Part shown: positions 1 through 47,213 of the stretch, in pieces
Layout: every line of letters begins with the position of its first letter
Numbering within the stretch: the stretch's first letter is position 1
Source of the DNA: Bilabrum cf. latius
Taxonomy: Eukaryota
Length of the DNA: 64,000 nt
Direction: 5' to 3'
Assembly (NCBI GenBank): GCA_965178125.1
Contig: OZ237747.1
Span: forward strand, 496,001-560,000
Notes under the pieces: generated by a model
The model's database searches: none
The model's input: only the letters and a program-made list of their open reading frames with translations
Told to the model about the DNA's origin: nothing
Position numbers and translations under genes: made by a program

Positions 1-2730
1 CTTGATCTTCGTTTCAGCAGCACCAGCAGCACCGGAACCGCCGCTAGGACCACTCCCACTGGGACTCTGCCGGCTCTGCGACGCGATCTTCACCATGGCC
101 TCGCTCGTCGCCTTCGATGCAGGCGTGCCGTGATCGTCCGAGCCGCTTTCCTCGTCGCCCTCCCCTGGCTTTTCTCTCTCCAGACGCATGGCGGGCGGAG
201 GAGCTCCAGCCTGCACGGCACTCCTCTGCTCAGACAGCTCGAAATCAGTCGTGTTCGTAGACCCCACGGAGTCACCCATCTCGCTGCCGTGGACACTGTC
301 CCGCATCGAGTTTTTCCACTACCCAGGCAAGTTCCAGCCACCCTGTCTACCTGCCTCGCGGGCCGTGTCCACCACCTCTGATTCCACATCCGGCAGCAGC
401 CTCACCGCCCCCCGCATCCTCTCCACCAAGAACCGACACAGGCCCAGCTCCATCGCACTCGCCGCGCGCCCCCTGTCTGCCACTGAGTCCTGCGCCTGTC
501 CCAGCGCCATCAGCTCCCGCACTGTCATGCGCCCGTCCACTGGCCTCTCCGGGTGCACTGCGGCGATCACCTCCGCCGGAGACAGCTCAGCACTCACGCC
601 GCGCGAGTACATGGCGAACGTCCGCCGCTCCTGGTCCGCCTCTTGGCGCGCCTGGCTGCGGAACATCGCCGCGCTGTCCGCCATCGCGCGGTTCTTCTAA
701 TCCACCATCAGCTGCGTCTGCTGTTCCGACTTGCGGGCCCGCACGGCAGGATCCAGGTCCACGCTCTTGGCCCCGCTGTCGCACACCAGCACGCGCAGGA
801 AGTACCCGTGATGCCCCTGTGTTCCCCCGCTGGCGTCCTCGCTGCTCCCGTGCCACGCCGAGCCCCGGTAGGCTGACCGCTTGTGGTGCGGCAGCACCTC
901 GCACAGCACCAGCACGCTGCCGTTGCGACCCGCCGACTGCACCGCCGAGTGCACCGTGGTCAGCAGCACAAACTGAAGAGCACGCATGTCCACCAGCGCG
1001 CCCACATCGTCCACGAAGCCGTCGCTGTCCAGCCACAGGAACTCCGTCTTGATGTTCTTGCGCAGAGCCAGGCCCCGCACCCTGGCTCGGATGGGCCTGT
1101 AGAGGGCGACGGGGTTGAGAGGCGCGATCCTTGCTTTGAGGGTGCGGCTGGTCGCCTGCTCGTACATGGCCACATCGTTCATGGCTTTGGACATGCCGAG
1201 CGCCAGGCTGTACACGTTGTCGATGGCCTCAATGGGGTCCAGGAAGGAGGTCGCCATCACGGTGCTGCTGCTGTCCCTAGCTCGCTCAGAAGGTTTAGTG
1301 AAACTCCCAGTGCTGATCAGCACGGTTGCAGCCGAGCCCTCGACATTCTTCTCTCCTAGCAGCTTGCTAGGGGGTGCCCTGCGCCGCATACCAGCACCCT
1401 GGTCTGGCCTTGATCCGCCCTATTGCCCCACTGTCATGTAGGAAGCAGAAGCGACAGCTACATCCTGGGACTTCTGCGCCACTAGCACACGCCTCAGCTC
1501 CTCGATGCCGGACAGCTGCTGCCCCAAGGAAGGACCGACCCGATTGCGCACCGCACCCAGCAGCCTCGTCTTCTCTCGCGCCATGTGCTGCAGCACTGCC
1601 GCAGACATATCCAGCTCCTCGCTGAACCGGAGGATGCTCATGCGGGAGAGCACACTCGTCACACCGATCTTCACGCCGATGTCGGCCACAGAGAAGAACA
1701 CATCTCGTTCAAATGCGTCGATCGCCTGCTCCGCTTCCAGGATAAAAATCAAGGGATACACGCACAGCAGCAGCCCCACCACGATGCTCACGGCCCACAC
1801 GCGGCGGCGACTGGCCTCGTTGAGCGCGCGGGCGTGGGCGTCCTGCAACATCAGGGCACAGCCCCACATCGAAACAGAGAAACACAAGCATGAAAGCACG
1901 AACAGAATCCATCGAGCCGCTGGGGGAGATGGCCTCGCCAGGATTCCGAGGATGATCATGACGACATCGGCGATGACGGTCGTGCGCAGGACCTGCACCG
2001 GCGCCTCGACCAGCGAGCCGAGCAAGGCGATGAGCGCCGGCGTGGTCACGAGCCAGTCGATGTACCGAATAGGTACCAGCCAGCTTCCCTCGCGCATGAC
2101 GAGGTTTGGTGCCCACTGCAAGGCTTGGGCCAAGTAGCTTAAAGTGGCCCCGCTTCGGACCAAAGCCGATGCAAGAGTTATCAGGATTGGTGGCCGACTC
2201 AAAGACGGGAACAGCAAGCTGAGCAGATCAAGAGCTAGTAAGACCCCAAAAATGGACGCTGGAACTTCGAATGGGAAACCACTGTCGACGATTGCGGCAT
2301 CGTCAGCGTCTACGTCAGCGACATGCAAACCGATAGCAACTGCAAACAGCACCAGAAACCCGGCTGCTCCCCCAATCATCCAGTATATAACCAATGGTTC
2401 AACACCTAGTTTCCACTGCACCGAGTAATCGGTCTCGTAATCGGCAGCGTCTGCAAACTAGCGCGAATCAACTCCACCGGTGGTTTGGTCGAACGGCTCA
2501 GCAGGCGTAGGGCCACCGCCGTTGCTTCCTTTAGAGACATTCTGTTTCGCTTGGTGTACAGATGATCTCTTTGACTGCGAGGCGAGAGCTAAAACCTTTG
2601 AACCAACTAATCCGTTGCGCGTGCAACCGAGACACTTAAATGGACGTCTTGTACTGTTGCAGCTCACCACACGTGATGAGTCCAGGCCTCCACGCCCCAC
2701 CCCAAATAAAGTTTCCTATAATGAGCTCAT
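1..2730 (-). CDS. Microbial (type-1, 8-TM) rhodopsin fused to a degenerate HisKA/HATPase module; 3' end lies beyond the window edge (>910 aa)
   Basis: Track ORFs 2458-2700, 1420-2421, 697-1389 and 319-684 share one frame, joined by TAG only (2716, 2458, 1420, 697, 319). The frame is open to base 1, with an ATG at 2728-2730. Rhodopsin motifs: helix C IRYIDWLVTTP, helix D ADVVMIILG, helix F YP, helix G DIGVK (Lys codon 1669-1671). Kinase-like segments follow: EKTRLLGAVRNRVGPSL, DMRALQFVLLTTVHSAVQ, LVCDSG, LGLCRFLVERMRGAV. Confidence 0.88.
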
Positions 2731-2813
2731 ACTTGGCTCGAATAAGCTTATTGTGGTGTTCTGGTCTATGCTTGTGTCGTCATCGAACACATGCAAACGG
2801 GTTCGGTTCCGGA

Positions 2814-2840
2814 ATCCCCTTGCGACCATAACTGTCCCAA
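2814..2840 (+). repeat. Left terminal inverted repeat of the transposon
   Basis: 27/27 match to the reverse complement of 5563-5589. Confidence 0.95.
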
Positions 2841-3140
2841 GCTGAACGGCAAAATTCCCAACTTCAGTCGCAAAATTCGGAGCAATAATGTCCAACTATG
2901 GCCCTGTCCTTTTCGGTAATGAAGCAGGTTTTCAAGGAGATTTCAAAACTGTAACCAGATTTTCAGGACGACATGTTCTCTTCAAGCTATGACCGACCAA
3001 AGATGGCGGCCTTGGCGGCCGGCATGATCGCGCCTGGTAAAAATCACAACTGTCCCAACTTCAAAGTCCTAAATATCTCGCATTTCACACTTTTTTTTCA
3101 GGTTTCCAGTATAATAGCAGTATAATCATATATAAAAATA

Positions 3141-5492
3141 TTAAGTTCGACGCTTCTTTGAAGCTGGCATGGCCCTCTTGTTGCTTGCAGCCTAGATCTT
3201 CGCGATCTTGGCCTTGAGGGCCTGATTCTGAGCTCTCATTGCGTCCAGGTTGACTCTAGCCTCCTCAAGCTGCTCAATAATCTCATCTGTGGACTGATCC
3301 TAGAGTGGGCGGTCGCGCATCTGATTTTTCCGCAGCTAAGCGGCGTCACCCCCGCCCCCCCGGGGCCCGATGGCCCCACGGTTGCCTTGCAGCCCCTTCA
3401 GCCTTGGTCGCCTTTTCTGAGATTGTTGTGCCCGAGCTGCGCTTTCAATCTTTGCTTGAAGCCCCAAACCTGCTAATCTCAGGAATGCAGCCGTGTTGGG
3501 GCGTCTCTTCGCCAGGGCATCATGGGCGCTCACCACGCGCTGGGCGCTCGCCAGTCCCCCGAGGTTGTCAGCCGTGGCAGGCCCAAGCACAGCAGACGAG
3601 GATGATGACTACGGCTCAGATGCGCCTGCTCCACTGGCAGCCGTAGTACTCTTCACGAAAGATCCTGACTCTGTCGGGATACTCTCCAGTATTTTGGCTA
3701 CGTCTGACAGCTCACTACCACTGGCCCCCTCCCGGGCCCTCTGCAGCGTGGCCCTGTGCTGCTTGACTTTGTCCATGTCAACTACAACGGAAGGGTTGAA
3801 CGGGAGAAGTCCGCACTTCTTGAATCCACTAGCAGCATTCGAAGCTCGAAAGCTGTGGCTTGCACAGGTCAAGACCAGCGGTGCGATCCACTCCTCCCCG
3901 ATCGCGTCACACGACGCCTTCGCTAGTGCCGACTTCTTCGCCTCCGGGGCAGACGCCATGAATGCTTCCATGAAATGAAGCTAGCTCAGATAGACACAGA
4001 AGTCTTTCTTAACACCACGAAGCTCTGCTTTGAAGGACGACATGCACGCGACGTCCAGGGGCTGCAGGAAGTGGGTGCTCATTGGAAGGAGGAGCTCGAT
4101 GTCGATGTTGTTGGCAGCGCAGAACTTCCTGAGGCTCCGCTGGTCATGCGTCGAGTGGTTGTCCATCGTGAGCAGTACTCTAGCTGTGGGAGGGAGCCTC
4201 TCTTCCCTTCGCACTCTAGCTGCGTACTCCACGATCTTTGGAAGCAGCAGGGACAAGGACCCGACGTTGCTGTAGCCGGAGGGGGTCGCACAGAACACGA
4301 TGATGTCGAGGAGCTCGATGTCCGTCTTGGCTAGCACCAAGAAGAGTTTCTGGACAGACGAGGGGTCCACAACATTCCCAGATAGCCTTACCTCAGCTAG
4401 AATATCCTCGAGCTCCGCCTTCAGGCCGTCGTCGTCGAGCTTGCCCGCATCGCGCTGGGCTTGCGCACGTTGCAACCGGGCTGCCACATATTCCTGCTCG
4501 CGCTGGATCTCGCGTTTGACCTTTTGAGACTTGCCATCGTAGCGGAAAACGAGAAGGCCAGCAACAATTCCATCCTTCGCTGATACAACAGGAACGAATG
4601 ATACGTTTGTATTGGAAAAATGCGTCGCGCGAAGCGCAGCACGGGGCGATTCGGCCCTGACCACCAGACGGTCCGCCCCGTCAACCCTTGCGCCCTACCC
4701 TGGCTGGGCATGCAGTATGATCACAGTCTCATCTATGTTTAACTACAATCGTTCGTGATAAATGCACGTCCCTGACACGACGACGCCAAGCTCAGTATTG
4801 AGTACCAGGCCTCGTTTTGCTGCTCCTTCGCCAAACCAGTCCAGCAAGCACGTGTGGCTCTCCGCCACGCTACGATTGATTGTCTTCTCTTCACCTTGCA
4901 AATCCTTCAGTTTATGAGCCTTTAGAAATCTGGTTGACCACACACGCGATAGTGGCACCCCATCCTTGTGTGAACCAGCACAAAAGTCGTTGCGAAGGCC
5001 TGTTGCAGTTCGGCGCAGTCCTTCAAGCGTGAACGGCACCTTCTCATCCTCTCGCAATATGACCAGCTTCGCAAGTGCCCGTTCAACATACTAGGGCAAA
5101 TCTGTTCGCCAACACAAATCCTGTAGGGGGCACGTTAATCGTTGCTAGATTCGCTGGAATCGCTTCCGGACAGCGCTAAACGTCTTTTCTGGGTACACCT
5201 CATTTTGAATCTCTCGGTAGATTTCACTGTCATTTTGAACCTTACCGGGATTTCTCTCCCTCCACACCTAAAGCTTTTGCTTGTAAATTATATAATCTGC
5301 TTGCTGCGCTTCATATAGTCGCATCTCAGGCTGCTCAGCTGTGCATTCTTCTACCGATTGCTCCAAGGCCGTGCGCCAAGCGAGCACACGATTCACGTCA
5401 TCCACAGACACCTGAAGGATAGCCCGAGTATCCGAGTCGTCAATTGCGTCGAGTATTGATGATTCTTTAGAACTGGAGGAGGATGCTTGCAT
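3141..5492 (-). CDS. pogo/Fot1-family DDE_1 transposase (783 aa with TAG read as sense)
   Basis: I translated one frame from ATG 5490-5492 to TAA 3141-3143. It has 10 in-frame TAGs and no TAA/TGA. It contains a CENP-B-like HTH (ERALAKLVILRE...LSRVWSTRFLKAH), catalytic motifs NIDET, LLTMDNHSTH and LPMSTHFLQPLDV (35 residues between the last two Asp), and a basic C-terminus PASKKRRT. Confidence 0.92.
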
Positions 5493-5562
5493 AACTCTAG
5501 AATTGAGACCTGTATGAGCTCAAGAAGTGGTCGCATTTGAATCTTGGGACAGTTGCAGTTGG

Positions 5563-5589: not shown

Positions 5590-5649
5590 CCGGATTGTTC
5601 GCTGTGCCCGTCTTCCGCTGGCCATCCTTTGGTCCATTGGACCTGAAAT

Positions 5650-7254: not shown

Positions 7255-7452
7255 TTTTTTGCTTCGATATACCCGCCGGACGTGTTGTAATATAATGCAC
7301 CTTTTCACATATTCAGTGTAGAGCGATCGTGCTTGGCAGATATTGCAGGTAGGAAATGGATTTGCCCTCAGCCGGAACGGAAACGTGATTGCGTGTGCTT
7401 TCTGGTTTAAATGCTTGGATTTGTTTCCGTGGAAACCACAAGGTGAAGAGCT

Positions 7453-10209
7453 ATGAGCTTAAAAGCCGCGGCTGCAGCGAGAGCTTTAGCTAGATCTCGC
7501 TCCTAGCCCGCCGCCCAACCGGAGAGGCAGTCGCGCTGGGGAGCACCGACAGCTTCAACGCAGGCATAGCCTCAGCAACAAGCGCATCCTGCACAAATGC
7601 CATCGATGCAGCAGCCGAACATGTCGCAATCTCATGTAAAGTAGTTTAACCAGCAGCCTGCAATGGGTTCTATGCATCAAGGAATACCTGGTGCACCATA
7701 GACTAACCAGGCTGGATTCCATCCGGGACCTCGGCCGCACTTCGGCCAAGCTCCCATGGTGTTCTACCAGTAGGGACCTCGGCCCAATGCGCCGGCTTTT
7801 CCGTACAACTACCCAAGACCTGCCCCAATGATGGTGCCTGGTGGGCCAAGAGTCCAATATGGATACCCTCCGCGAGGATTCCAGCCTGGTTTCTAGCCAG
7901 GGGCTGCGCGGCCACCTCAACTCCCATTTGGGCAGGCAGGCCATGTAGGATTTGCGGGTGGCAGACCAGGACTACCCCCGGGTGTCCAGCCGCCGCGCGC
8001 AGCAGCGAGCGGGCTGGCAGGAAGGCCGATGCAGTTCGTCCAGGCGAGCCAAGGAACGGGCAGCACCGCAGCTGCCACCACGCCGGCCCCTTCCTCCTCG
8101 TCCGCCTCGTCCGCTGCTCACCAATCGTCGTCATTATCCTCTGCATCTTCAGTTGCACTGACGTCATCTACAGCCACTCAACGACCCGCTAGCTCTCCTA
8201 CCTCGGCCACATACGGCGGGCAGGGGCAAGGGCAGGGGCAGGGGCTGGCATCCTCCACTCAGCACCACGCCAGCGGCATCCCTGCAGCGTTTGGAGGCGC
8301 GACCGCCGCCGCGAGTGGGATGAGTGGCCTGGGCCCGACCAGCGCGATCATGGGGGACCTTACGACAGCAAGACTGTCTATTTGGGTTGGCAAGCTGCCG
8401 CCGACCGACGTGGTGCCTGCAGAGGCGGTCGAGGCCGCCATCCGGCGGGCTGTGAGGCCCGGCAGGTTCGGCCTACTGGGTTGGGAGAGGGCGGGGCAGG
8501 CTATCGCAGGCGCTGGGACAGGTGCCCGCCCCAACGGAGCTGCGCATGGGGAGCGCGCGCCACTGAAGGGATTCGGGTTTGCGACGGTGGAGGGGGCTCT
8601 GGCCGCTGCCAGGTTGTGTTCCCTCGATGGCATCAAGCTGTGGGAGGCGGAGGAATCCGGTGAGGGAGCGGATGGAGGGCATCGGAGCCACGAGGGCGAA
8701 TCCTGGTCCGGCGGGATCGTCGTGAAGCTGGGGAAGGAAGCAGAAGCCGTGATGCAGGCGTGGACGCAGCAGCGGGCGCAGGAAGCCCGCTAGGCTCGGA
8801 GGAGGGCCCGCCGAGAGGCCGCTGCCAAGGCTAGAGAACAAGCGGAGCAGGAATCGAAAGAGGGGAAGGAAGAAGACGGTGAGCAAGAATCACAGGCAGT
8901 GCAAGATACCAAGTCAGAGGGTGCGAATGCTGCTGTAGAGGGGGATCCAGAGACGCAAGCATCCGCCGGAGATGCCAAGGCAGATGAGCGGCATCAGCCT
9001 ACCCCCCAGCAAGCAGGCGAGGCAGTGGGGGGGAGTATCAGAACGGCAGCATCAGCTGACGAGCAAGTGGGAACCGCTTCTGGTAGTGCGTCATCCACGG
9101 CAGCAGCAGGCGAGAGCGAGACTCCAACTGCAGGTGCGACGGCTGCTGCTGCTGGTCAGCAGCAGGAGCCTGAAGCTAGCGCTGGATCAGATGACAGCAG
9201 CGATTAGGAAGACGAAGGAGAAGAGCCTCAATTCTCGCAATTCGTGGACGGCAAGGGGGCTCGAGACGCGGCCATGGAGGCAGCCAAGCTGGCATTCCAG
9301 AGCGTGCTTCAGCGGGAGGGCAGAACCACAGCGGTGCGGCAGAGGCCTGGAGTGAGCCTGGTGTCGCAGTTTCGGGAACAAGCGGAGAAGGAGCAGCAGG
9401 CCATGAATGAATGGAAGCAGCGCATGGCCAAGGCTGCCAAGGCACGGGCAGAGGCAAACGCGAAGCGGGCAGCTAAGGAGCACCAATCGCAGACTCGTTC
9501 GAGCGGTGGCGACGCAGGGCGCAGAAGTGAATCCGCCAGTAGATCCAGCCAGCCTAGAGGCGATGAAAGGAGCTCATAGGGCAGGCACCCTTCGTTTGGT
9601 CGTGATGACGGTCGCGGGGGAGGCCGGTCCAGATTTGAGGCACGCAAGCCAGTGGATGCTCGATTCGTTGACGACGATAGTGATAGCGACGACAACGCTG
9701 GCAGGGACTAGGGCTAGCAGGCTGCAGCTGGTTCAGCGCAAGCTGACTCGGTCGCCGCGGGGGTGAAACGTGACCGACCAGACACGGAGGGTGGGGCGAG
9801 CGGCCAGTCTGCAGGGAAGCGTGCCCGTGTGGATGACTCGGCGCCGTCAACAAGCGAGGTAATTGATTTGCCCCCGCTGGATGCCGAATCCGTGAGGGCA
9901 AGGGTGCATGCAACGCTGGGTCCATTCGTATCGCAGCTGTTCTCTGAGGAAGAGTCGGGCAGCGCCTCCGAGGGAACTGCCCAGGCAGCTTACTCGGAAG
10001 ATGTCCAGGAATTCTTGGGGTTTGTGGCTTCAATCGCAACTGAGGCAGCAAGCAAGTTGCATAGTTTGGCGGCAGACGACACGGACGCCCTTGCCTCGGC
10101 GGAGACTGCTTTTGTGTAGTCTGTAGTGAGCGAGTTCGGAGAGGTCATTGGAGAGGACGAGTCATAGCAGGTGGGAAACCTAGCTTGGATTGCGATCGTT
10201 GGAAAATAA
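7453..10209 (+). CDS. RBM25/Snu71-like splicing factor (Pro/Gln-rich N-terminus, RRM, charged region, PWI-like C-terminus), 918 aa
   Basis: Single frame from ATG 7453 to TAA 10207-10209 with 13 in-frame TAGs. RNP2-like IWVGKLP and RNP1-like LKGFGFATV; helical PWI-like tail (LGPFVSQLF...EFGEVIGEDES). Confidence 0.72.
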
Positions 10210-10415: not shown

Positions 10416-13400
10416 TCAAGCCGATAGCACTTGCCTAGCCATGGCCTTCCGGTCTGGCTCAGACACTGCAATCTTCAGCAGCCGCTGCTCCCTGCCGTCT
10501 ATGACAACTGCCCTCCTGTGGAAACCCGAAGCGGTGCAGCAAGCACAAGCGCATCCATGCTGCAGAAAGCCTTGCAGCCGTGCCACGAGCGCCGCTAACG
10601 CCGACTGGCACTCTTCGACGGGATCGTGGATCTCGCCCATCGCGTATTCATCATCGCCCGCATGCTCAACGTCGTCCATCATGGCGCTGCTACCGCCTGC
10701 TGGTCCCTCGGCACTCGTACTCTGTGCAACTGCCTGCCACACGAAATCGAACAAATGGAACTTTGAATTTGTTTCGGACAGGCCACAGCCTCGACGTGCT
10801 TGCCAGAGCGCAGTAATACCATCGTTCAGGCATTGCACGCTCTGGGCGAGCTGGGTGCGAGCAGGCCCAGGTGCAAGCTGAACAGACTGTAGCGCCGTTG
10901 CTGCAGCAACTATCACGTTGCTCTGGATAGAGAATGGATTCAGTCTGGAGGCGCAATCTTGTAGGACACGGGATCGAGTTGCTTGCTGCTTGCAGTTCTG
11001 CATACCGTCTAGGTATGGCCCAGTGATGAGAATCCACTGTCGTAGCTGTAGCCAAGCTGCCACTCCCGCGTGCGATGGGACATGCGGCTCGCTTCCACTT
11101 CCTTTACAAGCAGGAGATGATGTGTCTACCTTGACGCCATCTGCGAGGGAGCCCATGTCCGGCATCGTTGGGATGTCAAAACCAGGAAGTGCACCCCGGG
11201 TGGAGAATAGCACCCTCCCGAAATCTTCGTCGGGGAAAAGAAGGCTGTGCGAGAGAGCATACCCAGCCACGCACCCAAGAGAGACAGTCTGGGCTAGCAC
11301 TGCTGGAAATCGCGGCTTGGGATATATGTGCGGCCGGGCGCCACATCGCAGCAGCTCTTGCACAGAAGTACGGATAGAGGCTCGTTGAATCTGGAATGCA
11401 CTCGCAGGCGAAGTATCCTTTCCTCGCGACCCATCTCCCGAAGCTGCACCGGCCCCTGTCGAAGCGCTAGCTTCAGTCTCTTCGGCAATGGCAGCTAGAG
11501 CGTCGAGGTCCTCGCTTGCCAGAGACTCCGGCATCGAATGCCCCGCCGCGCTGCTCTAGGTGGCCGGTACATCAGCGGCGTCCTGTGATCGCAAAACACC
11601 CATTGTTCCTGCGGCCACAGTGGCATCAGCTGCACGATGCGCGGTTCCATGGCCAAGGCTTTCCTCGACCAGCTTTGACAAGAGTGATGCCACGCTCAGG
11701 TGACTCTCGAGGTGCAGCATGGCAGCGACACGTCCCCGGCTCTGCGACAGGCTCGAGCCGGTCTCAGTGGATCTAGAAGGAGTTGTGCTTCGTTCCTTCG
11801 TCGACTGTTGACGAGAAATCACCTAGATCAGTGAGTTCAGCAGATTGGCAGACGTCCCAGACTGCTGGTTCGGATCGGTGGTGCTTGCTGACCCGGCGGT
11901 CCGGCCACTCAGGCGCTCTGAAAGCTTTTCCGCTGCCGAGACTAGTGCCAACGACGTGTGCATGGAAAGGAGTTCGATCGACTGCACAAGAACAGAATAC
12001 GCAAACACGCGCTGCCTTGCATCTATGAGAACCAGCGCAGTCGCTGCCTCAGCGCTCTCCGTCCCCTACAGACGCACTGCTGGCCAGAACGGGGCTTCCT
12101 GGATCTCGCGAAGACGCTTTAGCAGCTGGGCGGCCTCCTCACCCAGCCCCAGACCGGGCAGGGCAGATTCGAACAGCTCATCAACGTGCAATACGGGCGG
12201 TTGCTCTTGCTTGAATGCCTCCAAGACAGCCCTTGCTTGCGCGGCTGCCAGCGAGCTGGACGAGGTACCCGAAGCACGAGATGCCGACGTTGCACTGCTC
12301 TTGGTAGGCGTAGCTGTTGCCTGGTTTGTATCCGCTGCGACCAACCTGGCCAGCCGCCGTTCCTTTGCTTGCTAGACAGCAAGCTGCCGTTGAACCGCCT
12401 CAGACCTCTGTTTCGAGGCGGAGGGACCCCCAAGAAGACCGACCATGGTTCTTCGTTTCGGCTTCTGACGATTTTTGCCGTCTTGAGGTCCTCTACGGCC
12501 CCCACCAAGCAGGGCGCGCATTGGACGCGCAGCAGTGCTGGCACTCACGCTGTCAACAGTGCTTCGGAGGCTTGATGGGAGCCTGTACTCACGCGATTTC
12601 TGCTTGATGCGTCTCGTGATACTTGCTCGCTGGCTCCCGAGGATCCCCACACCGGACTTCATCGACGCGGACCGCTGCGGCCTTCCAGGAGCAGCCAATG
12701 TCAAGCTTGGTTTAATCCGTCCTGCCGCATGTTCCGCGTGCACTTGCTCTCTGACTTTTTGCTGCTTGGCGCGGAGCAGACGCACCGCTTCGAACCTTGC
12801 ATACTTGCTCGCTTGCTGCAGAGCGTGCAGGGCAAAGTCTTCCGGAATCGATGCGCTGCCTTGCTGGCTAGAATCCCGTAGTGAGGATCCTGTAGTGCCA
12901 CCATTAGTCTTCAAAGAAATGGCATTGGCAGGACGGAATCGCAGCGGAGAATTGGCGCCGAGGATTCGTCTACTAATGTCTACGAGAAGCCATTGATCCG
13001 GCTGTGCACCACTCAGGTGTGCTGATGCCCATTCTAACAGTTGCTACCGCGTGCAAGCAATCTTCGAGACGAATTGCAGCTCCCCAAGGGCAAGTGCTGC
13101 AATACCGCGGGCACTCTCTGCCAGATCGACCCCAGCTGACCCCGAGGCAGCACCTGGCGGAGAACTAGAAGCTGCTTTTACCAAGTCCTGCAGGTGGCAT
13201 ACAATCTAGCACAGTACCAGTACAGATGCAATCCTACTCCTGCACTTCCCAGCACAAACTTGCTTCAAGACCCGCCCTACGTACTGTAGTTCAGCGAACA
13301 AGTCTGCGTCGGACAGCTGTCCCTTGTCTAGCTTTGAACGTAGGTGTGACTAAACCGATAAAAGACGCAGCACAAGCTATCCCAGGGAGCGCCCACAGCC

Positions 13401-16400
13401 AGAGCTCTTGAGGGATGTCACACGGCCGCAACACACATCAGCGAAATGCCTTGCACTCTTGAGAGACCCAAGCACCCGGGCATTCAGTCTTGGAGCATCA
13501 AAGGACAAGTGGCTATCGGACGCACCGTCCGGTCCACTTCCTACTAATCGTGCTTGCTCCATCACAGTGGCAGCAAGAAGGAGCTGCTGCACTCCTTCCC
13601 GTACGGCAGCCTGGGATGCACCCCTGCTAGACTGCCTGTCGCTCAACTGCTCCAGCATGGGCTAAAGCTCTGTTCGAACACCCCCGTTCGTCTGAATCTT
13701 TGACAGCAAAGCACCAAGGCAAACCCGAAGATCTCGACTGCCGTCGAAGTCAACCCCACCGTCTGATAGCGCTGTACCACGCTTGAATGCACTCCCACAC
13801 AGACGATCTACCTCTTCGCTGTGAGCTTGCAAAATAGACCTGTGTATACCTTGTTGCCACGAAACTAAGCCGCATTGTAAAACATACGTGATCCAAGGCT
13901 ACTCGTGACTGAGTTGGCTGGAGCCGCCACCGCTATTGGGGCCGAAAATGCGACCAGCCTGCACAGCCGGGAGCAGCGGCATAGTCCTCGCCTCTACGGA
14001 CCCATCCATGCCACGAAGCACAGACCGCAGAAGTAACACAACTGAGCTAGGATCTAGGACGGTTGATGGTGAACCATCGTCGTCGCTCCGCTTGTGAAAC
14101 GATTCTATGCTAGTTGCAAGGATCATCAGCGACTACGGTAGTCTACACCGTCTGCCGACCATAGTTACAGGCTTGTGCTCTGAGGCTTCTGCAATGCAAC
14201 GTGCTAGCATCGTGCCGAATTGTTCGCTTGGTTGACCAGCTGGGTCTGGAGGGCATATTACACTTGCGCCGCTACATGACACCAGCGTAGGGGTCGGGGC
14301 GGCTTGCAGTCCGGCAACGCTTGGCATTGATTGCAGTCCAGAACCGGGATCGCCGGAGAGCAAGGCTCCTATTCGATCCAGGGACCCACCGGGCAGCGCA
14401 TACTTCACCTCTCTGGTGAGTACTTCGTGACTGCTTGGACCACTAGCGAGCCGTGCATTTGGTGTTTCTGCTTCGTTCGATGGACCGCAGTCTTCTCCGA
14501 GAGACACGATACCCATGAGCAGTTCAACGACAAAACAAGCGGACCTACTGCTGCTGGCAACACCTGTTGCTGCAGACAGCATATCACGGTGTACGGATCC
14601 CTGGGGCCCGATGCCGTCAAACCAAAGACTGCGCATGAGGGCAAGCAGAGGAGAGTGCAGCACGAGCCCATCCGAGGTGCTGCCGTTGATGAATGCGCTT
14701 GCCTGTGGCAGTATGAGGCTGCGCGGCGCATCAGCCTTGAATTTTGCGCAGACAGACGATGGATTTGCAACCGCAATAGCTAAGGAACGCCGCCACACTG
14801 ACACCCAAGCCGAGCGCACTTTGGAAGCTGACGATAGAATAATCGAAGCGTCTCCTGTAAGAGCTGCTAGGTGTTCGCACGAAAAGTGGGCCGCTGCTAG
14901 CAGCTTAAGCGCGAGAGAACACCATGTCTGCAGAGCAGCAGACGGGCACATCGGTTCCATGCCCCGGTAAATTGACTAGCTCGAGTCTGCAGACAGCTCC
15001 CCATCCGAGTCATCCACAACTGACAAAAGAGGTGAGTCGATTGCAGGAGCTCCGCAGCGCGTTGCAAGGGCCGAAACCGTTGCACAATACATCTCCACGG
15101 CTCTTGCAGCAGTATCTGTTCTCTCTGCAGGATGGTCCAGCGCTGCAAGCGCTATTTCGGCGGCGAACTGGTCGGCGTGCTGCTTCGCAGCTCGCAGATT
15201 AGATTGGGCAGGGCCTAGGAGAGCCTGTGCGACCGACCCTGGCGGGAATAAAGCCTTATCTATCGAGTCAAATAGGCCTATCTGAGGCTGGGAGCACTGA
15301 AGCAGCAGGCCAATTCTAGCCTCAGCCGTATGTATTGCTGCCATGGCATGCAGTACGCCGTGACAGCAGTCTTGCACGCTTCTGTCACTGCTACCACCGT
15401 CGGCGATGGTGTCGCCGCTAGGGTCAACGAACTGGCTCGCCCATCGAAGGGCAGACTTCCCAATCTCTGGAAACAAAAGAACCTTGCTACGCATGACTGT
15501 CCGGAGGATTGACCACTCCTTCCAAGGCTGCTACAGCTGCTCCTGGTTGGGTTGTCCTGCTGCCCATCCTACCATGGCAGCCTCGCACTGAGCCCAACTC
15601 TTCAGTGCTGCTGGCACATGGATGGCATAAGGTTCTTGCTCATCATCGTCAGCCTGTGCATGACTATCAGGAGCTGCTTCCACGTGATACATACGCATTA
15701 TCTCGGCCAACTGCTCGGCTACACGGACGGGCACATCCAGAGTGTGGAAAGCCTGCGATCTGCCTGGCTCGGTGTGCTGCGGCCCATCTAGGCGACGATG
15801 AGTCGAATCTTGCAGCCCACTTGAAGGTGATGCTGCTGAATAGTTGGGAACGCGGTCAAACGTGTGCATTGCCACTCCTGAAGACATTGCACTGGATGCC
15901 GACGTCCCGAAAGCTCGAAGGCCGCCAGCATCTGAAAGCTGCGAGGACGGCAGGCCCACGGATGGCGCCGCTAGTGCTGTGGCAGCCGCTACAATTGTTC
16001 CATGGGAACCATTATCAGCTTTCTCCGGCACCTAGCTTGCTACCTGCCGTTGATCAAGGCTACCCACCGACACAATGGTTGGCTAACCGCGACCTTGAGC
16101 AGGAAACGCCGATTCCACGCCTGATGCCGTGCCAACGTGTATGTCTCGAATCCGTAGCAAACTTGGGAACTCGTTATCATCGACACTGGACGGACCCGTC
16201 ATATCCGACCCCATGTGGGTACTACCCTACGATGCTGTCTGCATCGTAGTTCGAGACCCTGCTCGTTCTGCGCTTGGCACCGCGCAGCTGCTGCCAGCGC
16301 CAGCTGGCGGTCTTCTTGCACCCAATTGGCTAGGCGAATTATTTTTCTGTGGATGCGAAATTAAATTGGTACTGCTCCCAGATGCGCGGGACCGTGCCCG

Positions 16401-18664
16401 CGATGACCCTGCGGCAGCACCAGCAGGTGCAGAGCGGCGACTCGACGCGCTGGCTCCAGTGTGCTTGTGCTTCTCCCCACTCGCTGAGAACCCAGCTGAA
16501 TTCTCCCGATTCTGCAGCATAGACAGCTTACCACCGCTTATCAGGGACTCGATATCGTTTAGAAGTCTTCGACTCTGCTACTAGACAGACTTTTCTGTCC
16601 TGCCCCTGCCGGATCGCCTGCCTCGGGAGCGCCGAGCCCTCCGCTGCTTGCCGCGGCGTTTTCGATTCATACGGTCCTCTCCCGACACTGCACGCTTCCG
16701 CTTCGCTCCTAGCACCCCGTTCTTATACCGAGGCACCTTTTTGGCCCTGGCCTGCGCTGCTCCGGAAGATAAACTTGCACCCGCACGAGACACTCGAATG
16801 CCTTTGGGCCTCATACTGCCTTCATCGCGGGCCAAGTGGCGGTCCAGCGTGTCTTGCTGGCTCAACTGACTCAGCTGAGAGCCAGTCTTGAAATCAAGAG
16901 TCGGAAGAATGCGTGGTCCCGCGTGGCTGGGTGCGCTAACACCGAAGAAGCCATCTGCACCGCTAGGTCTTGAGGTCGTGCTGGCCCCCTTCGAGTTGAG
17001 CCTTGCGTGTCGGGCGGCGCGGGCACCAGCACCGAGCTCATCATCGTCTGAGTCTAGCTCATCGTCTGTGTCAAGGTCAAGCCTGACACCGTCGCCATCG
17101 CGCTGCTGCTGCTCCCCAGTTTGGGAGTCCTGCAGTGTAAGAGACTGCCTCGCTCTGCCGTCTTCTGCCCAGCCAAGCTCGGGCATCCGCTGCTCAATGC
17201 GCCTGCGCTTCGCTTGTAGGCGGCGTTCCTTTCTTTGGGCCGCATCGCGTGCTGCCCGCGAGGCTTGCTAGCCTCCTCGAATGAAATCGCCGAGCGTCAT
17301 GCCGCCCTCGTCGGAGCTGCCAGAGGAGCTCGAGCTCGACGCGCTGCTGAGGCTAGCATAGCGTCCCTCGCGCCGCGCAACAGGAGAATACCCATACGAA
17401 GAGCTGCTATCAGAATGCCCGGAACCGCTGGAGTCAGACGAGGAAGAGGACGACTCGAAATCGTCTCTGAACACGGGCCTAGCACGCATCCTGCCCTACA
17501 TGCCAGCTGCCCGTCTCCTCTGCCGCTCTGCCTCCCGCTATCGTCTGATTTCTAGCCTGTGTGCCTTCGCCGCCGCCTTATCGCGCGCCTGCAGCGCCTT
17601 ATATATCTTCGCTTGCGCAGCATCCGCGGCTCGCTGCTCGAGAGCTGCGTGGCGCATCCGCTCCGCTTCCCATGCCGGCGGCACATAGTCTTTGCCATCC
17701 AGTCGCGAGCGAGCTTTCCAATGCTCCATTCTCTCTGGTCGCAAGAACTTGGGCAGGTTTCTTGGGGCCCACCGGCTCACTTGAGTTCGGCTGGGTTTCC
17801 TTCTGCCGCTTCCGCCGCATACCAGGCCGCCTGCCTCTGCCTCTGCCTCCATGGGGGCCTACCCGCGAGCAGCACCACCTGAACTCGAGCCCTTGCTGCT
17901 ACTGCTGCTGCTGCTGCTGCTAGCAAACGCGCCTAATTTGAGCACGCGGTCCAGGACAGAATGGCGCGTCCCGCCGACGTTCTTGCGCACGACCCCCGTG
18001 CCTCCCCCAGATGGACCGACGCCGCTGCCAGAGCTTGCTGCAGAAGCTGCGCCAGCGCCTGCCTGCGAATGCCTAGCGTATTCAGGGATGTACCTGGGCT
18101 CTCTGCACGGATGCGAGTCGTACACTTTCATGAGCCGTCGCACGCCCTTGAGCGCATGCCTGCTCTCCACCACGGCCCGCGAGTGCATTAGCTGGAGCAG
18201 CTCGCCGAGCGTGCACCGCTTGCCGTCCTGTTCCTCCGAGCGAAATCCATCCCCCGGGTACGGCATGACCGAACCGCGGGTCTGCGGGTTGAAACCGCGG
18301 TCAAGCAGCCACTCCAGCACGTCAGGGTGCCTTCGGTGCGCAGCTTGCAGGAGCGGGTGGCTGTAGCTTTCCGGCTCAAGGCTTAGCATCAAGGCGCGCA
18401 GATCTTTGATCCCAGCATCCCAAAGTTGCTATACCTCGTCCAGCTATCCGTGCATGATCGCATTCAAGAACTCGTCAAGCGCTGGTTCAACTGCGGCATG
18501 GACTTGAAAGTCGAACGCATCAAGCAGTGGGCGCAAAAATCCAGGTGGCGCGTGTGCAACAATAAGAAACACTTACCTTCATCCAGGGATGGGGGCACTC
18601 GATATCTTGCTGGCTGGCCAGGATGATTTTGAGGAGCAATTGCACCAGCCGGCTGGCTGCCCAT
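10416..18664 (-). CDS. Very large (~2,720 aa) protein of unknown function with N-terminal ankyrin-like repeats
   Basis: Fourteen track ORFs between 10416 and 18392 share one frame, separated by TAG (>=23). The gene ends TGA at 10416-10418. One intron at 18491-18576 (GTAAGT...GCAG); ATG at 18662-18664. Ankyrin-like segments FLNAIMHG*LDEV*QLWDAG and HPLLQAAHRRHPDVLEWLLDRGFNP. Confidence 0.72.
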
Positions 18665-18981
18665 CGCTTGCTCAACAGCATTTGGGCTCAGCAAGCTGTC
18701 CTATCCCGCTGAAGAATCTTCTAAACTATTATCCTACGGAATACTATGAGAATCTTGCTCTTTGATGTCCGAACCAGGCACCGGTGGCTTCAACCTTGCG
18801 AGGAGCGGTAGGCTCATATTCACACGCACTTTCCAGCTCGATAAAGCAAATTCAACGCTAAAAACTCAGTTTTACGCGGTCATAACGTCATATTTAAACT
18901 AGTGATATCATTTATACGGCAAAATACGCGGTCAATTTTGAATAATTCAGCCGTAGATGCGGCGGGATTTCCTCTGCACAG
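18665..18981. promoter_or_regulatory. AT-rich divergent intergenic region (putative bidirectional promoter)
   Basis: It separates two head-to-head genes and contains TACGCGGTCA twice (18873-18882, 18925-18934). Confidence 0.4.
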
Positions 18982-19044
18982 ATGCGCGGCGCACGGAGGT
19001 TCCGCTGGTCCACCAGAGGACAGAAGCAAGCACTTCTACTCAAT

Positions 19045-22000
19045 ATGAGCTCGAAGCGGGCCCCCATTGATCTTGAACCATGGTAGTTCTTTGGCTGGGG
19101 TAGCTCTCGCTTAGTTTTATGGGGTGACCAGCAGCAGAGCAAGCAGCAGGAACTGAAAGAGAAGCAGAATCATGGAGCACATTCATTAGTGAACCAGTGG
19201 ATGGCAACTGCTATCGTGGGAAACGATTTGCTCTCTTCTTGCCTCTATGTCATCGGTTTGACGTTTGCCTCTGCGGGGCCGTTGGCACCGGTCTGTCTTG
19301 TGATAACGGCGGCGATGCTGTATTTGTTCCGCTGGGTTTACACCGAGGCAGTCGGCGCACTCCCGATCGACGGTGGTGCGTATACCATTTTGTTAAATAG
19401 CACCAGTAAAGCTGTGGCTGCCTCTGCTGCATGCCTGACGCTCCTGAGCTACGTAGCTACCGCTGTGGTCAGTGCAACAGACGCAGTGATCTACCTCCAA
19501 TCAGTATGGCCTGAGCTCACAGAAATAGTCGGGGTGTTGTTTTTGCTGGCACTATTTTGTGGACTGGCTATCCTTGGAGTTGGTGAGAGTGCTGCAGTTG
19601 CTTCGTGTATGCTGTCGCTGCACATGGCCACGTTGCTGCTGGTGGCGATTATTGGAATCATTCACATGGCGAATGACAAAGGAAAGACCTTCTCGGACAA
19701 CTGGAAGTCTCCATTTCCTGACATCCTCGCCGGTGACGGGGACGACTAGACGCCGGGCAACGGCACGCTGAATGCAGCACTGCACGGGTCATTCGCTCCG
19801 TCCCCTTCCGCTTCCGCATCCGACGAAGGGTCGCTGCTGGGATCGCTTGGAGACACGGCCAGGGTAATTGCTAGGGGTAACGTTGCAACTGCACTGTTCT
19901 TCGGCTTTGGACAGTCTCTACTGGGTGTCAGTGGGTTCGAATCGACTGCCAACATGGTGCAGGCGATGCAGCCGGGCGCCTTCCCGCTCGTGCTTCGCAA
20001 CCTGTGGCTGGCGGTCGCGATCGTCAACCCGGTCCTTGCCCTGGTGTGCATGGGTGTGCTGCCCATGGATACGATCTATGCCCGCAGTGCAGACGTAGTG
20101 GTGGCGGTCGGGCAGGCCGCATCGGGCGGATCTCTTGCGCCGGGTGCATCGCCAACCTGGCTAGGCTACCTCGTTTCCATCGACGCATTTATCGTGCTCA
20201 GTGGTGGCACGCTGACGTCATTCATTGGGGTGCAGGGGCTCGTCGCGAGGATGTCCATGGACAAGTGCCTCCCCGAATTTCTCATCCAGACCAACTCGTG
20301 CAGGGGCACGGCCCACTGGATCCCCATCAGCTTCGCACTCATCGCCGCGTCCCTGTGCCTCATCCTCAACGGAGACGTCGACACTCTTAGCGGTGTGTAC
20401 ACGCTGAGCTTTCTGTCCGTTATGTGCCTCTTCGCGATTGGTAACGGTCTGCTTCGCTACAAGCGTCCGAGCCTCCGCCGCCCACTCAAGGCGGCCCGCG
20501 GCACGATTGCTGCCGCGCTCGTGTTTGCCCTTCTCGGCTTGCTCGCCAACGTCATCATGAAGCCCAGCGCTGTATAGTACTTTGTGATATACTTTTCTTG
20601 CACCGGAATGGTAGTGCTGGTCATGTTCTTTAGGACCCAGGTCATGCAGCTCATGCTGCCGGTGGTTCGCTCGTGCTCGAAGCGCCTGAGCGACTGCTGC
20701 CCAGGGTGCTGCGGTCTACCGGGCAGAGATTCTTCAGTTGGGCACGCAACTCCGCTCCTCGGTGATGCAGTGGACGATGCCGGCAGCTGCCTGACTGCCG
20801 CTATCCGGTCGGCTAGGGAAGAGCCAGTCATCTACTTGGCCAAGAGACCTGACCTCCCCGCGCTGAACAAGGCCATACTCTATATTCGAGCCAATGAAAA
20901 CACCCAGAACGTCGTGATTGCACACTTTATGGAGCACTAGGTTGACGCGCATGCCGGTAATGGTGGCCGTTCGGCGAAGCATGGCTCGGAGACGAAGGCT
21001 GCAGACGAATCAAGCAGCAGCGACGCTGGCTCGGTGGAAGTGAGGTTGTCTGCGCCACAGGCCAAGAATCGCTTCGCTGCGGACCAGCTCATTCCTGAAA
21101 GCGACCTGACCGGCCAAGCCTCCGACCTGAGCCCAGGAGAGACAGTTCAGCTGGAAGGCCCAGCCGCGATTCTACAGGAGCAGGTGATGGTTCTCGACGC
21201 GCTCTACCCCAAGATCAAGATAGACTTCCTGTGCATCAGCGGCACAGTGTTCTGCCCGGACGCCCTTGCTTGGCTGGCAGACTACGTTGACGTGAGCATC
21301 AACAGTGTCTTCATCGGAGCACCCGACTCGGACTTTGCCCACGCAGTGTCTGCGCTGGGCGGCGTCAGGGTGATCACAAAGCCGACGAGGGATATCGTGC
21401 ACCAGAAGTTCCGTATCGACGAGGAGCCCCTCGAAGATGATGATGGGCACAAGAACGCGCAAGATTCAAAACAAGCGGTTGCATCGCAGACGCAGGTCGT
21501 TTCCATACCCAAGGCCGAGTCGGATGGCATCTCGATGTCGTCAACAAAGGAAGATAAGAAGGGGACTTTGTCAAGTGCAGCAGGCGGTGCAGCTGCGGCT
21601 TCGTCGGCCAACCCTACGATGTTCGACGCCTTGGTCAGTGCATCCAAACCGAAGAGCTCGTTCAGACGGACAGTTAGCTTCGCGGTCGGCTCCGATAGCA
21701 CAGGAGATCAAGAGCTTGTCGATGGTGCAGCTGCCAGCGCCGCAGCATCCGCAGCGGTGCAAACAGCGAGGTCTCGCTCCATGCCGGGCGCAGAGCTGGA
21801 CCAGGTCGTCGACAGCATCGGCGAGCGAGCGGCGGGGCGTTCTGGGTTTCGCCGCATGCAGAGGGCCAAGAGCTACGGCCACCCAAGCGGGATGGCCAGG
21901 CTATCGAGCGGCGAGCTGGATGCCGGGCCCTCGTTTGCCGGGTCGTTGCCGCTTTCACCGCCGCCGCTCGGGCGGTCCATGCGCGAGGGGGGCACAGGGC

Positions 22001-22212
22001 TGGTGCCTCTGCTGCTGTACGGTAGCTCCAGGGATGGTGCCGCGCAAGGAGGCCTGCGCTAGCGCCGCCAGCGATTGGTAGTGCAGCGTGAGCCGGTGCA
22101 ACAGGCCGGCGGCGTGCGGGTGGCAGGCGAGCTCGGCGGGCCAGCTGGAGCTAGCAGGCCTGACGGTGAAGGTAGCGGCAGCGGCAGTGGGGCCCCGGTA
22201 GACGGCAAGTGA
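19045..22212 (+). CDS. APC-superfamily amino-acid permease with a long cytosolic C-terminal tail
   Basis: Motifs ATAIVGNDLLSSCLY, ALPIDGGAYTILLN, LLGVSGFESTAN, IDAFIVLSGGTLTS, LNKAILYIRANE and YPKIKIDF. In-frame TAGs at 19084, 19747, 20575, 20938 and 22060; ends TGA 22210-22212. An alternative in-frame ATG lies at 18982. Confidence 0.88.
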
Positions 22213-46400: not shown

Positions 46401-47092
46401 GAGACTGCGCCCAGTCGAACACTAGTATTCGGGCGGGGAGCCACTCCTCGCTGGCCTCCTTGTCTGCTGTTGCCCCACCACTCGCCATGGCGGCTCCGGG
46501 CTGCCGTTCGGCCTCCGCCGTCATTCCGTTGCCGCCACCTTCGCAGTGAAGCGCAAGAAATCTGCTTCTTCCATCAGTGCTGAATGCTGCCGCCCACACT
46601 CTCGAGTTTCTGCCCGTCGTGACTCGGACACGCTTCAGGAGAGCAAACTGCCAGCCGGTACTCAGGGGACCTGTCCCTCGCGATCTGCTTCCTGCCCCGC
46701 GCGTTATCTCTCGAGGACATAAATATATGCTGGCCTCGCAATCCCCCGTGTCGGCTCGCCGTTCAACGACGCAAAGAGCCCGGTTGTCGTGCGAGACACA
46801 CCAGCTTTCCAATCCATCAGCCCTTGGGTGCGATGGGACAATTCGCTGCCCGGAATCGGCAGAATCCGGAGCATTGTACACAATACGAGAGCCACACGCA
46901 TAGAACGAGCCTGTAATTATGAATGAGGAACAGGATAGGGCAACAGATTTTGCTAACGACGGAAGGAGCATTGAACCCGGAACACAGGAAGAAATAGGGC
47001 TTACCTCTGGCAGCAGTCGGTACAGCCTTCTGAGACTAAAGTGCTAGTTCAATTCCAAACAAGTGAGCTGGCCACGGTTCCCGTGCTGCCAT
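37450..47092 (-). CDS. CFAP57: CFAP57/WDR65-like flagellar WD40 + coiled-coil protein, expanded to ~3,180 aa
   Basis: Eleven track ORFs lie in one frame, joined by TAG. Intron 46911-47004; ends TAA 37450-37452. Motifs AHLFGI, ALHPSGQWMAV, FSSRGGMLAV and HRGPVARL...SDGCI, then a long coiled coil and C-terminal VRLQGENYVLVSEVNTLRKE. Confidence 0.75.
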
Positions 47093-47213
47093 GCTACTTG
47101 CAGACGAAGTGATTCGACCGCAACGGCAATATGGATGCCTCATCTTCAGTATGTGTAAGGTCGCAACTTGAGCAAGGAACCAAGAAACAGGTGCGACCGC
47201 TGCATTTTTGCGT

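What the first reader, a model, noticed from the sequence alone, without database searches (positions are those of the whole stretch)
7453..7900. Internal evidence that TAG means glutamine
Seen: a tandem peptide repeat reads GGA TTC CAG CCT GGT TTC TAG CCA GGG (G-F-Q-P-G-F-*-P-G, 7876-7902), with TAG in the CAG position. Six TAGs cluster in this Gln-rich tract (TQA*PQQQ, VK*FNQQP, FYQ*GP). Elsewhere TAG abuts Gln codons: TAG TAG CAG at 16575-16583 (-), and GAC TAG GGC TAG CAG at 9706-9720. In CFAP57, EVRH*QRAL (TAG 38659-38661) appears to align to an E-x-x-R-Q motif I recall from homologues, which needs verifying. TAG is one transition from CAG. Inference: UAG=Gln, as in NCBI table 15.
Basis: partly seen in the sequence, partly recalled or inferred. 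Interest (0 to 1): 0.85.

Follow-up and report, generated by a model that had tools for sequence, protein, structure and literature searches.

The report
TAG codon read as glutamine
In this GC-rich protist genome the usual stop codon TAG sits inside working genes and is almost certainly read as glutamine, a rare but already known kind of genetic-code change.

Summary
TAG is a sense codon here. Fifteen ORF segments (17,951 codons) hold 106 in-frame TAG. They are bounded by TAA or TGA, whereas their other two frames hold 61/66 TAA and 306/321 TGA. Reading TAG through lifts the longest ORF from 1,058 to 3,230 codons.

In relatives 86-97% identical, 8 of our TAG sites carry a sense residue: 7 Gln and 1 Glu. 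Nine standard-code ORF fragments of relatives stop exactly at our TAG (5) or our Gln (4). In one metagenome contig, its TAG lies on our CAG twice and our TAG on its CAA once. Ten columns from distant homologues sum to +15.3 bits for Gln, with Lys next at +0.6.

TAA and TGA still terminate, so the code equals NCBI table 15. Window-wide, TAG does not track Gln-rich segments. The CFAP57 motif could not be verified. No tRNA, eRF1 or peptide evidence was available. This is a known kind of code, possibly in an unreported, stramenopile-like lineage.

The parts
7453..10209 (+). ORF G4 (918 codons plus a TAA stop) with 13 in-frame TAG. This is the finding's gene, with a Gln/Pro-rich N-terminal tract.
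   Evidence: Contigs from runs X5-X7 cover it with no differing letters.
7504..7896 (+). Six in-frame TAG codons, starting at 7504, 7567, 7642, 7699, 7771 and 7894. The last lies in G-F-Q-P-G-F-TAG-P-G.
8791..8793 (+). TAG (G4 codon 447). An 86%-identical relative, P0274, has Glu here. This is the one counter-example.
10117..10119 (+). TAG (G4 codon 889). A 91%-identical relative, P0275, has Gln.
5268..5270 (-). TAG (codon 84 of the DDE_1 transposase ORF G2, 3141-5519). A divergent contig of run X8 reads CAG here.
32719..32721 (+). TAG in the kinesin-13 motor exon (codon 35 of 32617-33258). The 87%-identical metagenome locus L001 has CAA (Gln).
32791..32793 (+). TAG in the kinesin-13 motor exon (codon 59). 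L001 also has TAG. The column is Gln in 57 of 77 metagenome loci and 52 of 120 database proteins.
55037..55039 (+). TAG (G12 codon 189). Gln in P0125 (94% identical) and P0131 (53% identical).
55145..55147 (+). TAG (G12 codon 225). Gln in P0125 and P0131.
55844..55846 (+). TAG (G12 codon 458, in the TPR_TmcB domain). Gln in P0124 (97% identical).
56336..56338 (+). TAG (G12 codon 622, in the PAS domain). Gln in P0124.
10416..18572 (-). ORF G5 (2,718 codons, TGA stop) with 24 in-frame TAG, including TAG TAG CAG at 16575-16583.
37450..47139 (-). ORF G10 (3,229 codons, TAA stop) with 19 in-frame TAG, including the one at 38659-38661.
54473..60385 (+). ORF G12 (1,970 codons, TGA stop), TmcB-like with TPR and PAS domains, with 13 in-frame TAG.
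1..2931 (-). ORF G1 (rhodopsin domain), 6 in-frame TAG; it runs off the window.
18946..22212 (+). ORF G6 (AA_permease_2), 5 in-frame TAG, TGA stop.

Best explanation
This is a nuclear genome of a GC-rich, intron-poor protist whose kinesin-13 groups with stramenopile sequences. In it UAG has been reassigned from stop to glutamine, while UAA and UGA still terminate (the NCBI table 15 pattern). TAG makes up about 11.5% of Gln codons (106 of 920) and swaps freely with CAG and CAA between close relatives, as a synonymous codon would.

Shown here: TAG is in frame in otherwise intact, conserved genes; the residue at those sites is Gln in relatives; relatives place their own stops on our Gln codons; and TAA/TGA end the ORFs.

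Inferred, not shown: decoding by a tRNA-Gln with anticodon CUA (or relaxed reading by tRNA-Gln-CUG), together with an eRF1 that no longer recognises UAG.
For: (1) TAG is a sense codon.
- Residues in ORFs of at least 500 codons rise from 4,569 (standard code) to 19,235 with TAG read through. With TAA read through the figure is 5,194. The longest ORF goes from 1,058 to 3,230 codons.
- Frame 0 holds 106 TAG, 0 TAA and 0 TGA. Frames +1 and +2 hold 176/158 TAG, 61/66 TAA and 306/321 TGA.
- Pfam domains lie in these ORFs.

(2) Near relatives (86-97% identical). At 8 of our TAG sites they carry a sense residue: 7 Gln and 1 Glu.
- G12 codons 189, 225, 458 and 622 are Gln.
- G4 codon 889 is Gln and codon 447 is Glu.
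- G2 codon 84 reads CAG in a contig where 8 of 13 changed codons are synonymous.
- Kinesin codon 35 reads CAA in L001.

(3) Reciprocal evidence.
- Nine standard-code ORF fragments of relatives end exactly before our TAG (5) or before our Gln (4), and before no other residue.
- In L001 DNA, its TAG lies on our CAG twice and on our TAG once, with no TAA or TGA in the true frames.

(4) Distant homologues (80% identical or less). Log2-odds summed over 10 columns: Gln +15.3, Lys +0.6, Glu -0.2, Ser -8.4, Leu -8.8, Tyr -17.7. Kinesin column 59 is Gln in 57 of 77 metagenome loci.

(5) Pfam bit scores summed over Kinesin, TPR_TmcB, PAS and AA_permease_2: Gln 445.9, Trp 442.8, Glu 442.6, Lys 442.2, Ser 441.3, X 439.7, Leu 438.7, Tyr 437.3.

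(6) TAA and TGA behave as stops.
- All 13 complete ORFs end in TAA (3) or TGA (10).
- The in-frame TGAs in the SLC12 gene lie in short GTGAGT introns.
- Table 15 reads G4 open up to its TAA.

(7) Contigs from three further runs carry the TAGs unchanged in gene-sized pieces. One contig shows an 86-nt GT..AG joint, which hints that these are transcripts.
Against: - One near-relative site has Glu, not Gln (G4 codon 447).
- A 53%-identical relative has Leu at G12 codon 285, in a poorly aligned stretch.
- Solved animal kinesin-13 chains have Glu and Tyr at the two kinesin sites.
- Kinesin column 35 is variable: Glu 25, Asn 24, Gln 14 of 120.
- Several distant-homologue columns are led by Arg, Thr or Ala rather than Gln.
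- Window-wide, TAG does not follow local Gln content.
- The stop codon at the ends of the 9 protein fragments was not seen as DNA; only L001 was.
- There is no tRNA in the window and no whole genome is held, so neither the decoding tRNA nor eRF1 could be examined.
- There are no peptide data.
- Whether the covering contigs are RNA is a guess by the tool.
Confidence: 0.93

Rival explanations
1. UAG is ambiguous. It is read as Gln inside genes but still terminates some genes, depending on context, as described for some ciliates and for UAA in Blastocrithidia.
For: Nothing here excludes it. Three of 13 ORFs have a TAG within the last 17 codons: G7 directly before TGA, G4 codon 905 and G2 codon 776. 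True C-termini were not mapped.
Against: - Every long ORF runs on to a TAA or TGA.
- The G7 TAG-TGA overlaps a GTGAGC splice-like site, so it is probably an exon end.
- All four bases follow in-frame TAG (A 15, C 36, G 31, T 23), so no strict context is visible.
- The relative shares the TAG at G4 codon 905.
Confidence: 0.08
2. UAG codes for glutamate, as in some ciliates and Blastocrithidia.
For: G4 codon 447 is Glu in an 86%-identical relative. Solved animal kinesin-13 chains have Glu at kinesin codon 35, and that column has Glu 25 of 120. Sixteen of 77 metagenome loci have Glu at column 59.
Against: - Seven of 8 near-relative sites are Gln.
- Relatives' stops fall on our Gln 6 times and never on Glu.
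- Summed log-odds are -0.2 for Glu against +15.3 for Gln.
- Glu is depleted next to TAG (0.53x at +-1).
Confidence: 0.02
3. UAG codes for another residue one base away: Leu as in a rhizarian, Ser as in Scotinosphaera, or Tyr, Lys or Trp.
For: - Leu stands at G12 codon 285 in one 53%-identical relative.
- Tyr is in 46 of 120 proteins at kinesin column 59; these are the long-loop subfamily.
- Trp ties with Gln for TPR_TmcB and is best for PAS.
Against: - Summed log-odds: Lys +0.6, Ser -8.4, Leu -8.8, Tyr -17.7, Trp -33.3.
- None of these residues appears at any of the 8 near-relative sites.
- Summed Pfam bits are below Gln for all of them.
Confidence: 0.015
4. The TAGs are not translated. The ORFs would then be pseudogenes or sequencing errors, or the TAGs would lie in unrecognised introns or be edited in the RNA.
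For: Introns do exist in this window. One window TAG, at the end of kinesin exon 1, probably lies in an intron.
Against: - 106 TAG against no TAA or TGA in 17,951 codons cannot come from decay, errors or introns, since the introns seen here carry in-frame TGA.
- TAGs sit inside conserved domain cores: kinesin next to the P-loop, TPR and PAS.
- The same letters are found in contigs from 4 other runs.
- A relative keeps TAG at the same kinesin site.
Confidence: 0.01

Closest known systems
NCBI translation table 15 (Blepharisma nuclear code: TAG = Gln, TAA and TGA stop)
   Same: The codon table is identical. The tool's table 15 reads the finding's gene open through 13 TAG, as Gln, to a TAA stop.
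   Different: Table 15 was defined for a ciliate and is now used for some phages (label; abstract of PMC9523058 in the listing). This window is a GC-rich (0.56-0.62), intron-poor eukaryotic nuclear sequence whose kinesin groups with stramenopiles.
UAG-only reassignment to Gln in Iotanema spirale (fornicate), Protocruzia tuzeti and some phyllopharyngean ciliates
   Same: UAG = Gln with UAA kept as a stop, i.e. the two UAR codons decoupled (passages of PMC11687900 read; abstract of PMC5304391 in the listing).
   Different: The lineage is apparently different: the closest named kinesin homologues are stramenopiles. Three literature listings gave no report of a stramenopile nuclear UAG reassignment. 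Independent origin is inferred, not shown.
UAR (UAA + UAG) = Gln codes, NCBI table 6 type: many ciliates, Hexamita, Streblomastix, ulvophycean algae, Amoeboaphelidium
   Same: The same amino acid and the same one-step relation to CAR codons (passage of PMC11687900).
   Different: TAA is not a sense codon here. Reading TAA through hardly lengthens any ORF, and 3 ORFs end in TAA. By the CAA:CAG ratio of 235:579, about 43 in-frame TAA would be expected alongside 106 TAG; this is my arithmetic.
UAG reassigned to other residues: Leu (uncultured rhizarian, some ciliates), Ser (Scotinosphaera), Glu (ciliate PL0344)
   Same: Only UAG changes its meaning, or UAG and UAA differ in meaning (passage of PMC11687900).
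   Different: The residue here is Gln, not Leu, Ser or Glu.

Membership tests
UAG-to-Gln nuclear code with UAA/UGA stops (table 15 type) | In-frame UAG inside intact, conserved protein-coding genes | tested here: met
   106 TAG in 17,951 codons, several of them inside the Kinesin, TPR_TmcB, PAS and AA_permease_2 domains.
UAG-to-Gln nuclear code with UAA/UGA stops (table 15 type) | UAG positions correspond to Gln in homologues | tested here: met
   7 Gln and 1 Glu at 8 near-relative sites. Summed log-odds are Gln +15.3, with the next residue at +0.6. Gln gives the best summed Pfam bits.
UAG-to-Gln nuclear code with UAA/UGA stops (table 15 type) | UAA and UGA remain terminators and are not sense codons | tested here: met
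   ORFs end in TAA (3) or TGA (10). Reading TAA through adds little. In-frame TGA in the SLC12 gene lies in introns. This is window-scale evidence only.
UAG-to-Gln nuclear code with UAA/UGA stops (table 15 type) | UAG no longer used as a terminator | tested here: inconclusive
   No ORF needs TAG as its end, but true C-termini were not mapped. Three ORFs have a TAG within their last 17 codons.
UAG-to-Gln nuclear code with UAA/UGA stops (table 15 type) | A tRNA with anticodon CUA charged with Gln (or equivalent decoding by tRNA-Gln) | not testable with these tools
   No tRNA in the window by ARAGORN or Rfam, and no whole genome is held.
UAG-to-Gln nuclear code with UAA/UGA stops (table 15 type) | eRF1 with altered stop-codon recognition | not testable with these tools
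   eRF1 is not encoded in the window, and there is no genome to search.
UAG-to-Gln nuclear code with UAA/UGA stops (table 15 type) | Gln found in peptides at UAG sites | not testable with these tools
   No proteomic data.
UAR-to-Gln code (table 6 type) | UAA is also a sense codon | tested here: not met
   No in-frame TAA in ORFs of up to 3,229 codons. Residues in ORFs of at least 500 codons: 5,194 with TAA read through against 4,569 under the standard code.
   No hit in the PDB sequence search, whole or as the coiled-coil part. Only a sub-threshold EML beta-propeller Pfam hit. Whether the PDB copy holds a CFAP57 chain was not checked.

The most novel reading that the evidence does not exclude
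This is an independent and evolutionarily recent origin of UAG = Gln, with UAA and UGA kept as stops, in a stramenopile-affiliated, GC-rich protist lineage where no nuclear code change has been reported. At least two lineages share it: the window's organism and the organism of metagenome contig L001, whose kinesin motor is 87% identical. It is not visible in the next kinesin relatives at 63% identity or less. TAG and CAR codons are still turning over quickly between 95-97% identical relatives. That would make it a good natural model for how UAG and UAA become decoupled.
Probability: 0.4. Interest if true: 0.7.

Novelty: new member of a known kind. Interest (0 to 1): 0.6.

Why it matters
Departures from the standard nuclear code are rare. 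Those that split the meaning of UAG from UAA are rarer still: a handful of lineages, according to the passages of PMC11687900 read.

In practice, any annotation of this genome or its relatives under the standard code breaks most long genes into pieces. The database fragments P0121-P0125 and P0274-P0276 show this has already happened. Table 15 must be used instead.

In evolutionary terms, a GC-rich, non-ciliate lineage with UAG = Gln and close relatives that still swap TAG with CAG/CAA would allow a direct study of the tRNA and eRF1 changes behind the reassignment. If the source genome's authors have already reported the code, this is only a confirmation.

Tried and rejected
- The whole genome is not held, so no genome-wide tRNA, eRF1 or conserved-gene tally was possible.
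- Context statistics led nowhere. The neighbour-profile likelihood gave no clear residue: Asn, Met or Arg came out best depending on the radius. The windowed Poisson association with each amino acid was uninformative.
- PDB searches were of little use. G10 gave no hits. For G6 there was only one weak hit, with a Cys opposite the TAG in a low-scoring stretch. For G3 the TAG aligned to Gln in a weak second domain, E about 1, and was not counted.
- The searches for short relatives of G2 and G4 returned only 3 proteins each out of 8,000 scored candidates, so many TAG sites remain untested. Only 17 of the 106 TAG sites have any homologue evidence.
- No RNA holder was listed by the look-up of sequencing runs. 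The runs laid are contigs whose RNA label is a guess, so expression and absence of editing are only hinted at.
- The TAG at the end of kinesin exon 1 aligned to GCC in L001. I dropped it as probable intron sequence, because the alignment decays there.
- Supplementary files of papers were not consulted.
Full report
**The observation.**
- 7876-7902 reads GGA TTC CAG CCT GGT TTC TAG CCA GGG.
- 9706-9720 reads GAC TAG GGC TAG CAG.
- 16575-16583 on the minus strand reads TAG TAG CAG.
- 38659-38661 on the minus strand is TAG.
- The ORF starting at 7453 has six TAGs in its first 148 codons and 13 in all.

**TAG is a sense codon.** The window is GC-rich (0.56-0.62). Under the standard code the longest ORF is 1,058 codons, and ORFs of at least 500 codons hold 4,569 residues. 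With TAG read through, the longest ORF is 3,230 codons and the sum is 19,235. With TAA read through instead the sum is 5,194.

Thirteen large ORFs on both strands appear, separated by only 100-400 bases, and each ends in TAA or TGA. Pfam finds rhodopsin, DDE_1 transposase, class-V aminotransferase, amino-acid permease, SLC12, kinesin, RING, glycosyltransferase, TmcB-TPR/PAS and POPDC domains in them.

In 15 ORF segments (17,951 codons) frame 0 holds 106 TAG. The other two frames of the same DNA hold 176/158 TAG, 61/66 TAA and 306/321 TGA. Decay, sequencing error or hidden introns would have put TAA and TGA in frame as well. The introns I did find, in the SLC12 gene, carry in-frame TGA and begin GTGAGT. 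All four bases follow in-frame TAG, so no narrow read-through context is involved.

**Which amino acid: the internal clues are weak.** Gln is the most enriched neighbour of TAG (1.57x, 1.40x and 1.41x at +-1, 3 and 5). But across 292 windows of 60 codons, TAG count does not follow Gln count (r = 0.048), and no amino acid stands out.

The first homologue check was even discouraging. Solved animal kinesin-13 chains have Glu and Tyr opposite the two TAGs of the kinesin motor exon. The literature lists UAG reassigned to Leu, Ser and Glu as well as Gln (passages of PMC11687900). The rivals therefore had to be tested.

**Which amino acid: near relatives decide it.** Protein databases hold ORF fragments of close relatives, called under the standard code.
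- For the TmcB-like ORF G12, P0124 (97% identical over 466 residues) runs through our TAG codons 458 and 622 with Gln at both. P0125 (94% over 245) has Gln at codons 189 and 225. A 53%-identical relative, P0131, has Gln at codons 189 and 225 and Leu at codon 285.
- For the finding's own gene G4, P0275 (91%) has Gln at codon 889. P0274 (86%) has Glu at codon 447, which is the single exception.
- A divergent contig of run X8 over the transposase G2 reads CAG where we have TAG (codon 84). Of its 13 changed codons, 8 are synonymous and 4 are conservative replacements.
- Metagenome contig L001 carries the orthologous kinesin (87% identical, with the SLC12 gene next to it as in the window). It has CAA at our TAG codon 35 and TAG at our TAG codon 59.

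The total is 8 TAG sites with a sense residue in relatives 86-97% identical: 7 Gln and 1 Glu.

**The reciprocal test.** Nine fragments of relatives end exactly before one of our TAGs (5 cases) or before one of our Gln codons (4 cases), and before no other residue. Gln is 4.5% of residues. One of these ends is at a Gln of the kinesin motor in a 99%-identical fragment. In L001, seen as DNA, its in-frame TAG lies on our CAG twice, and its true frames hold no TAA or TGA. I dropped one site, our TAG at the end of kinesin exon 1 aligned to GCC, because the alignment decays there into a probable intron.

**Distant homologues agree.** I used only homologues 80% identical or less: 150 representatives for G12 and 120 kinesin proteins. 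Log2-odds summed over 10 TAG columns are Gln +15.3, Lys +0.6, Glu -0.2, Arg -2.8, Ser -8.4, Leu -8.8, Tyr -17.7 and Trp -33.3. Individual columns vary, and some are led by Arg, Thr or Asn.

Kinesin column 59 is Gln in 57 of 77 metagenome loci, Glu in 16 and Thr in 1. It is a stop codon in 3: L001, plus two low-GC loci full of in-frame TAA.

I also read the domains with each of seven residues one base away from TAG and summed the Pfam bits for Kinesin, TPR_TmcB, PAS and AA_permease_2. The totals are Gln 445.9, Trp 442.8, Glu 442.6, Lys 442.2, Ser 441.3, X 439.7, Leu 438.7 and Tyr 437.3. The margins are small, but Gln is first.

**The other stop codons.** TAA ends 3 ORFs and TGA ends 10. Reading TAA through only adds short tails. 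NCBI table 15 reads G4 open to its TAA. Whether UAG also terminates some genes cannot be settled here.

**Transcripts.** Contigs of three further runs match gene-sized pieces (3141-5590, 5667-7315, 7447-10109, 19045-22212) with no differing letters. One contig skips 86 bases with GT..AG ends on the gene's strand. This looks like RNA carrying the TAGs, but the tool's RNA label is a guess, so I treat it as a hint only.

**Mechanism.** No tRNA or other Rfam family lies in the window, and no genome is held. A tRNA-Gln-CUA and an altered eRF1 are therefore inferred from what is known of other reassigned codes, not shown.

**Who and how new.** The closest named kinesin homologues are stramenopiles. 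In a single-gene tree the query sits in a clade (support 0.96, 31 leaves) whose four named members are all stramenopiles. This is a lead, not a placement.

Kinesin loci at 63% identity or less show no jump in the longest ORF when TAG is read through. The code therefore seems confined to the window's organism and close kin.

UAG = Gln with UAA as a stop is known in Iotanema, Protocruzia and some phyllopharyngean ciliates. Listings from three searches gave no report for stramenopiles. Subscription journals and the source genome's own paper may not be covered by those searches.

**CFAP57.**

**Verdict.** This is a new member of a known kind. It is interesting mainly for its lineage and for the visible TAG/CAR turnover between close relatives.

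Noticed in passing
window 3141-5590 (-): The DDE_1 (pogo-like) transposase ORF seems to belong to a multi-copy mobile element. Contigs of runs X5, X6 and X7 all diverge from the window at 5534 and 5580. Run X8 holds copies about 91% identical over short pieces.
   Followed up: partly
window 30770-31600 (-): The SLC12 cotransporter gene has at least two short introns that begin GTGAGT and carry in-frame TGA. Its N-terminal exons lie upstream of the 1,057-codon ORF, which itself has no TAG at all.
   Followed up: partly
window 18491-18576: An 86-base stretch with GT..AG ends on the minus strand is skipped in one contig of run X5. It is probably an intron at the 5' end of the 2,718-codon ORF.
   Followed up: no
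window 47235-47600 (-) and 49601-49970 (-): The last ~85 codons of the glycosyltransferase ORF are duplicated about 2.3 kb downstream with a few substitutions.
   Followed up: no
window 26706-26711 (+): The lipase-like ORF ends TAG TGA, overlapping a GTGAGC splice-like site. The gene probably continues in another exon.
   Followed up: no
L001 1-700 and window 30770-31650: Gene order is conserved between the window and metagenome contig L001. The SLC12 N-terminal exons (95-97% identical) lie head to head with the kinesin-13 gene in both.
   Followed up: partly
L055, L057, L066, L080: Four metagenome kinesin loci carry many in-frame TAA and/or TAG in the motor domain, as expected of ciliate-type UAR codes; L080, the only one measured, has GC 0.27. 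Two of them have TAA at the Gln column 59.
   Followed up: no
window 1-2931 (-): A bacteriorhodopsin-like domain (72 bits) sits in the middle of an ORF of more than 977 codons with long flanking regions. It may be an enzyme-linked or sensor rhodopsin.
   Followed up: no
window 5647-7254 (+): The class-V aminotransferase ORF is most similar to solved hercynylcysteine sulfoxide lyase (Egt2) chains, which suggests an ergothioneine-pathway C-S lyase.
   Followed up: no
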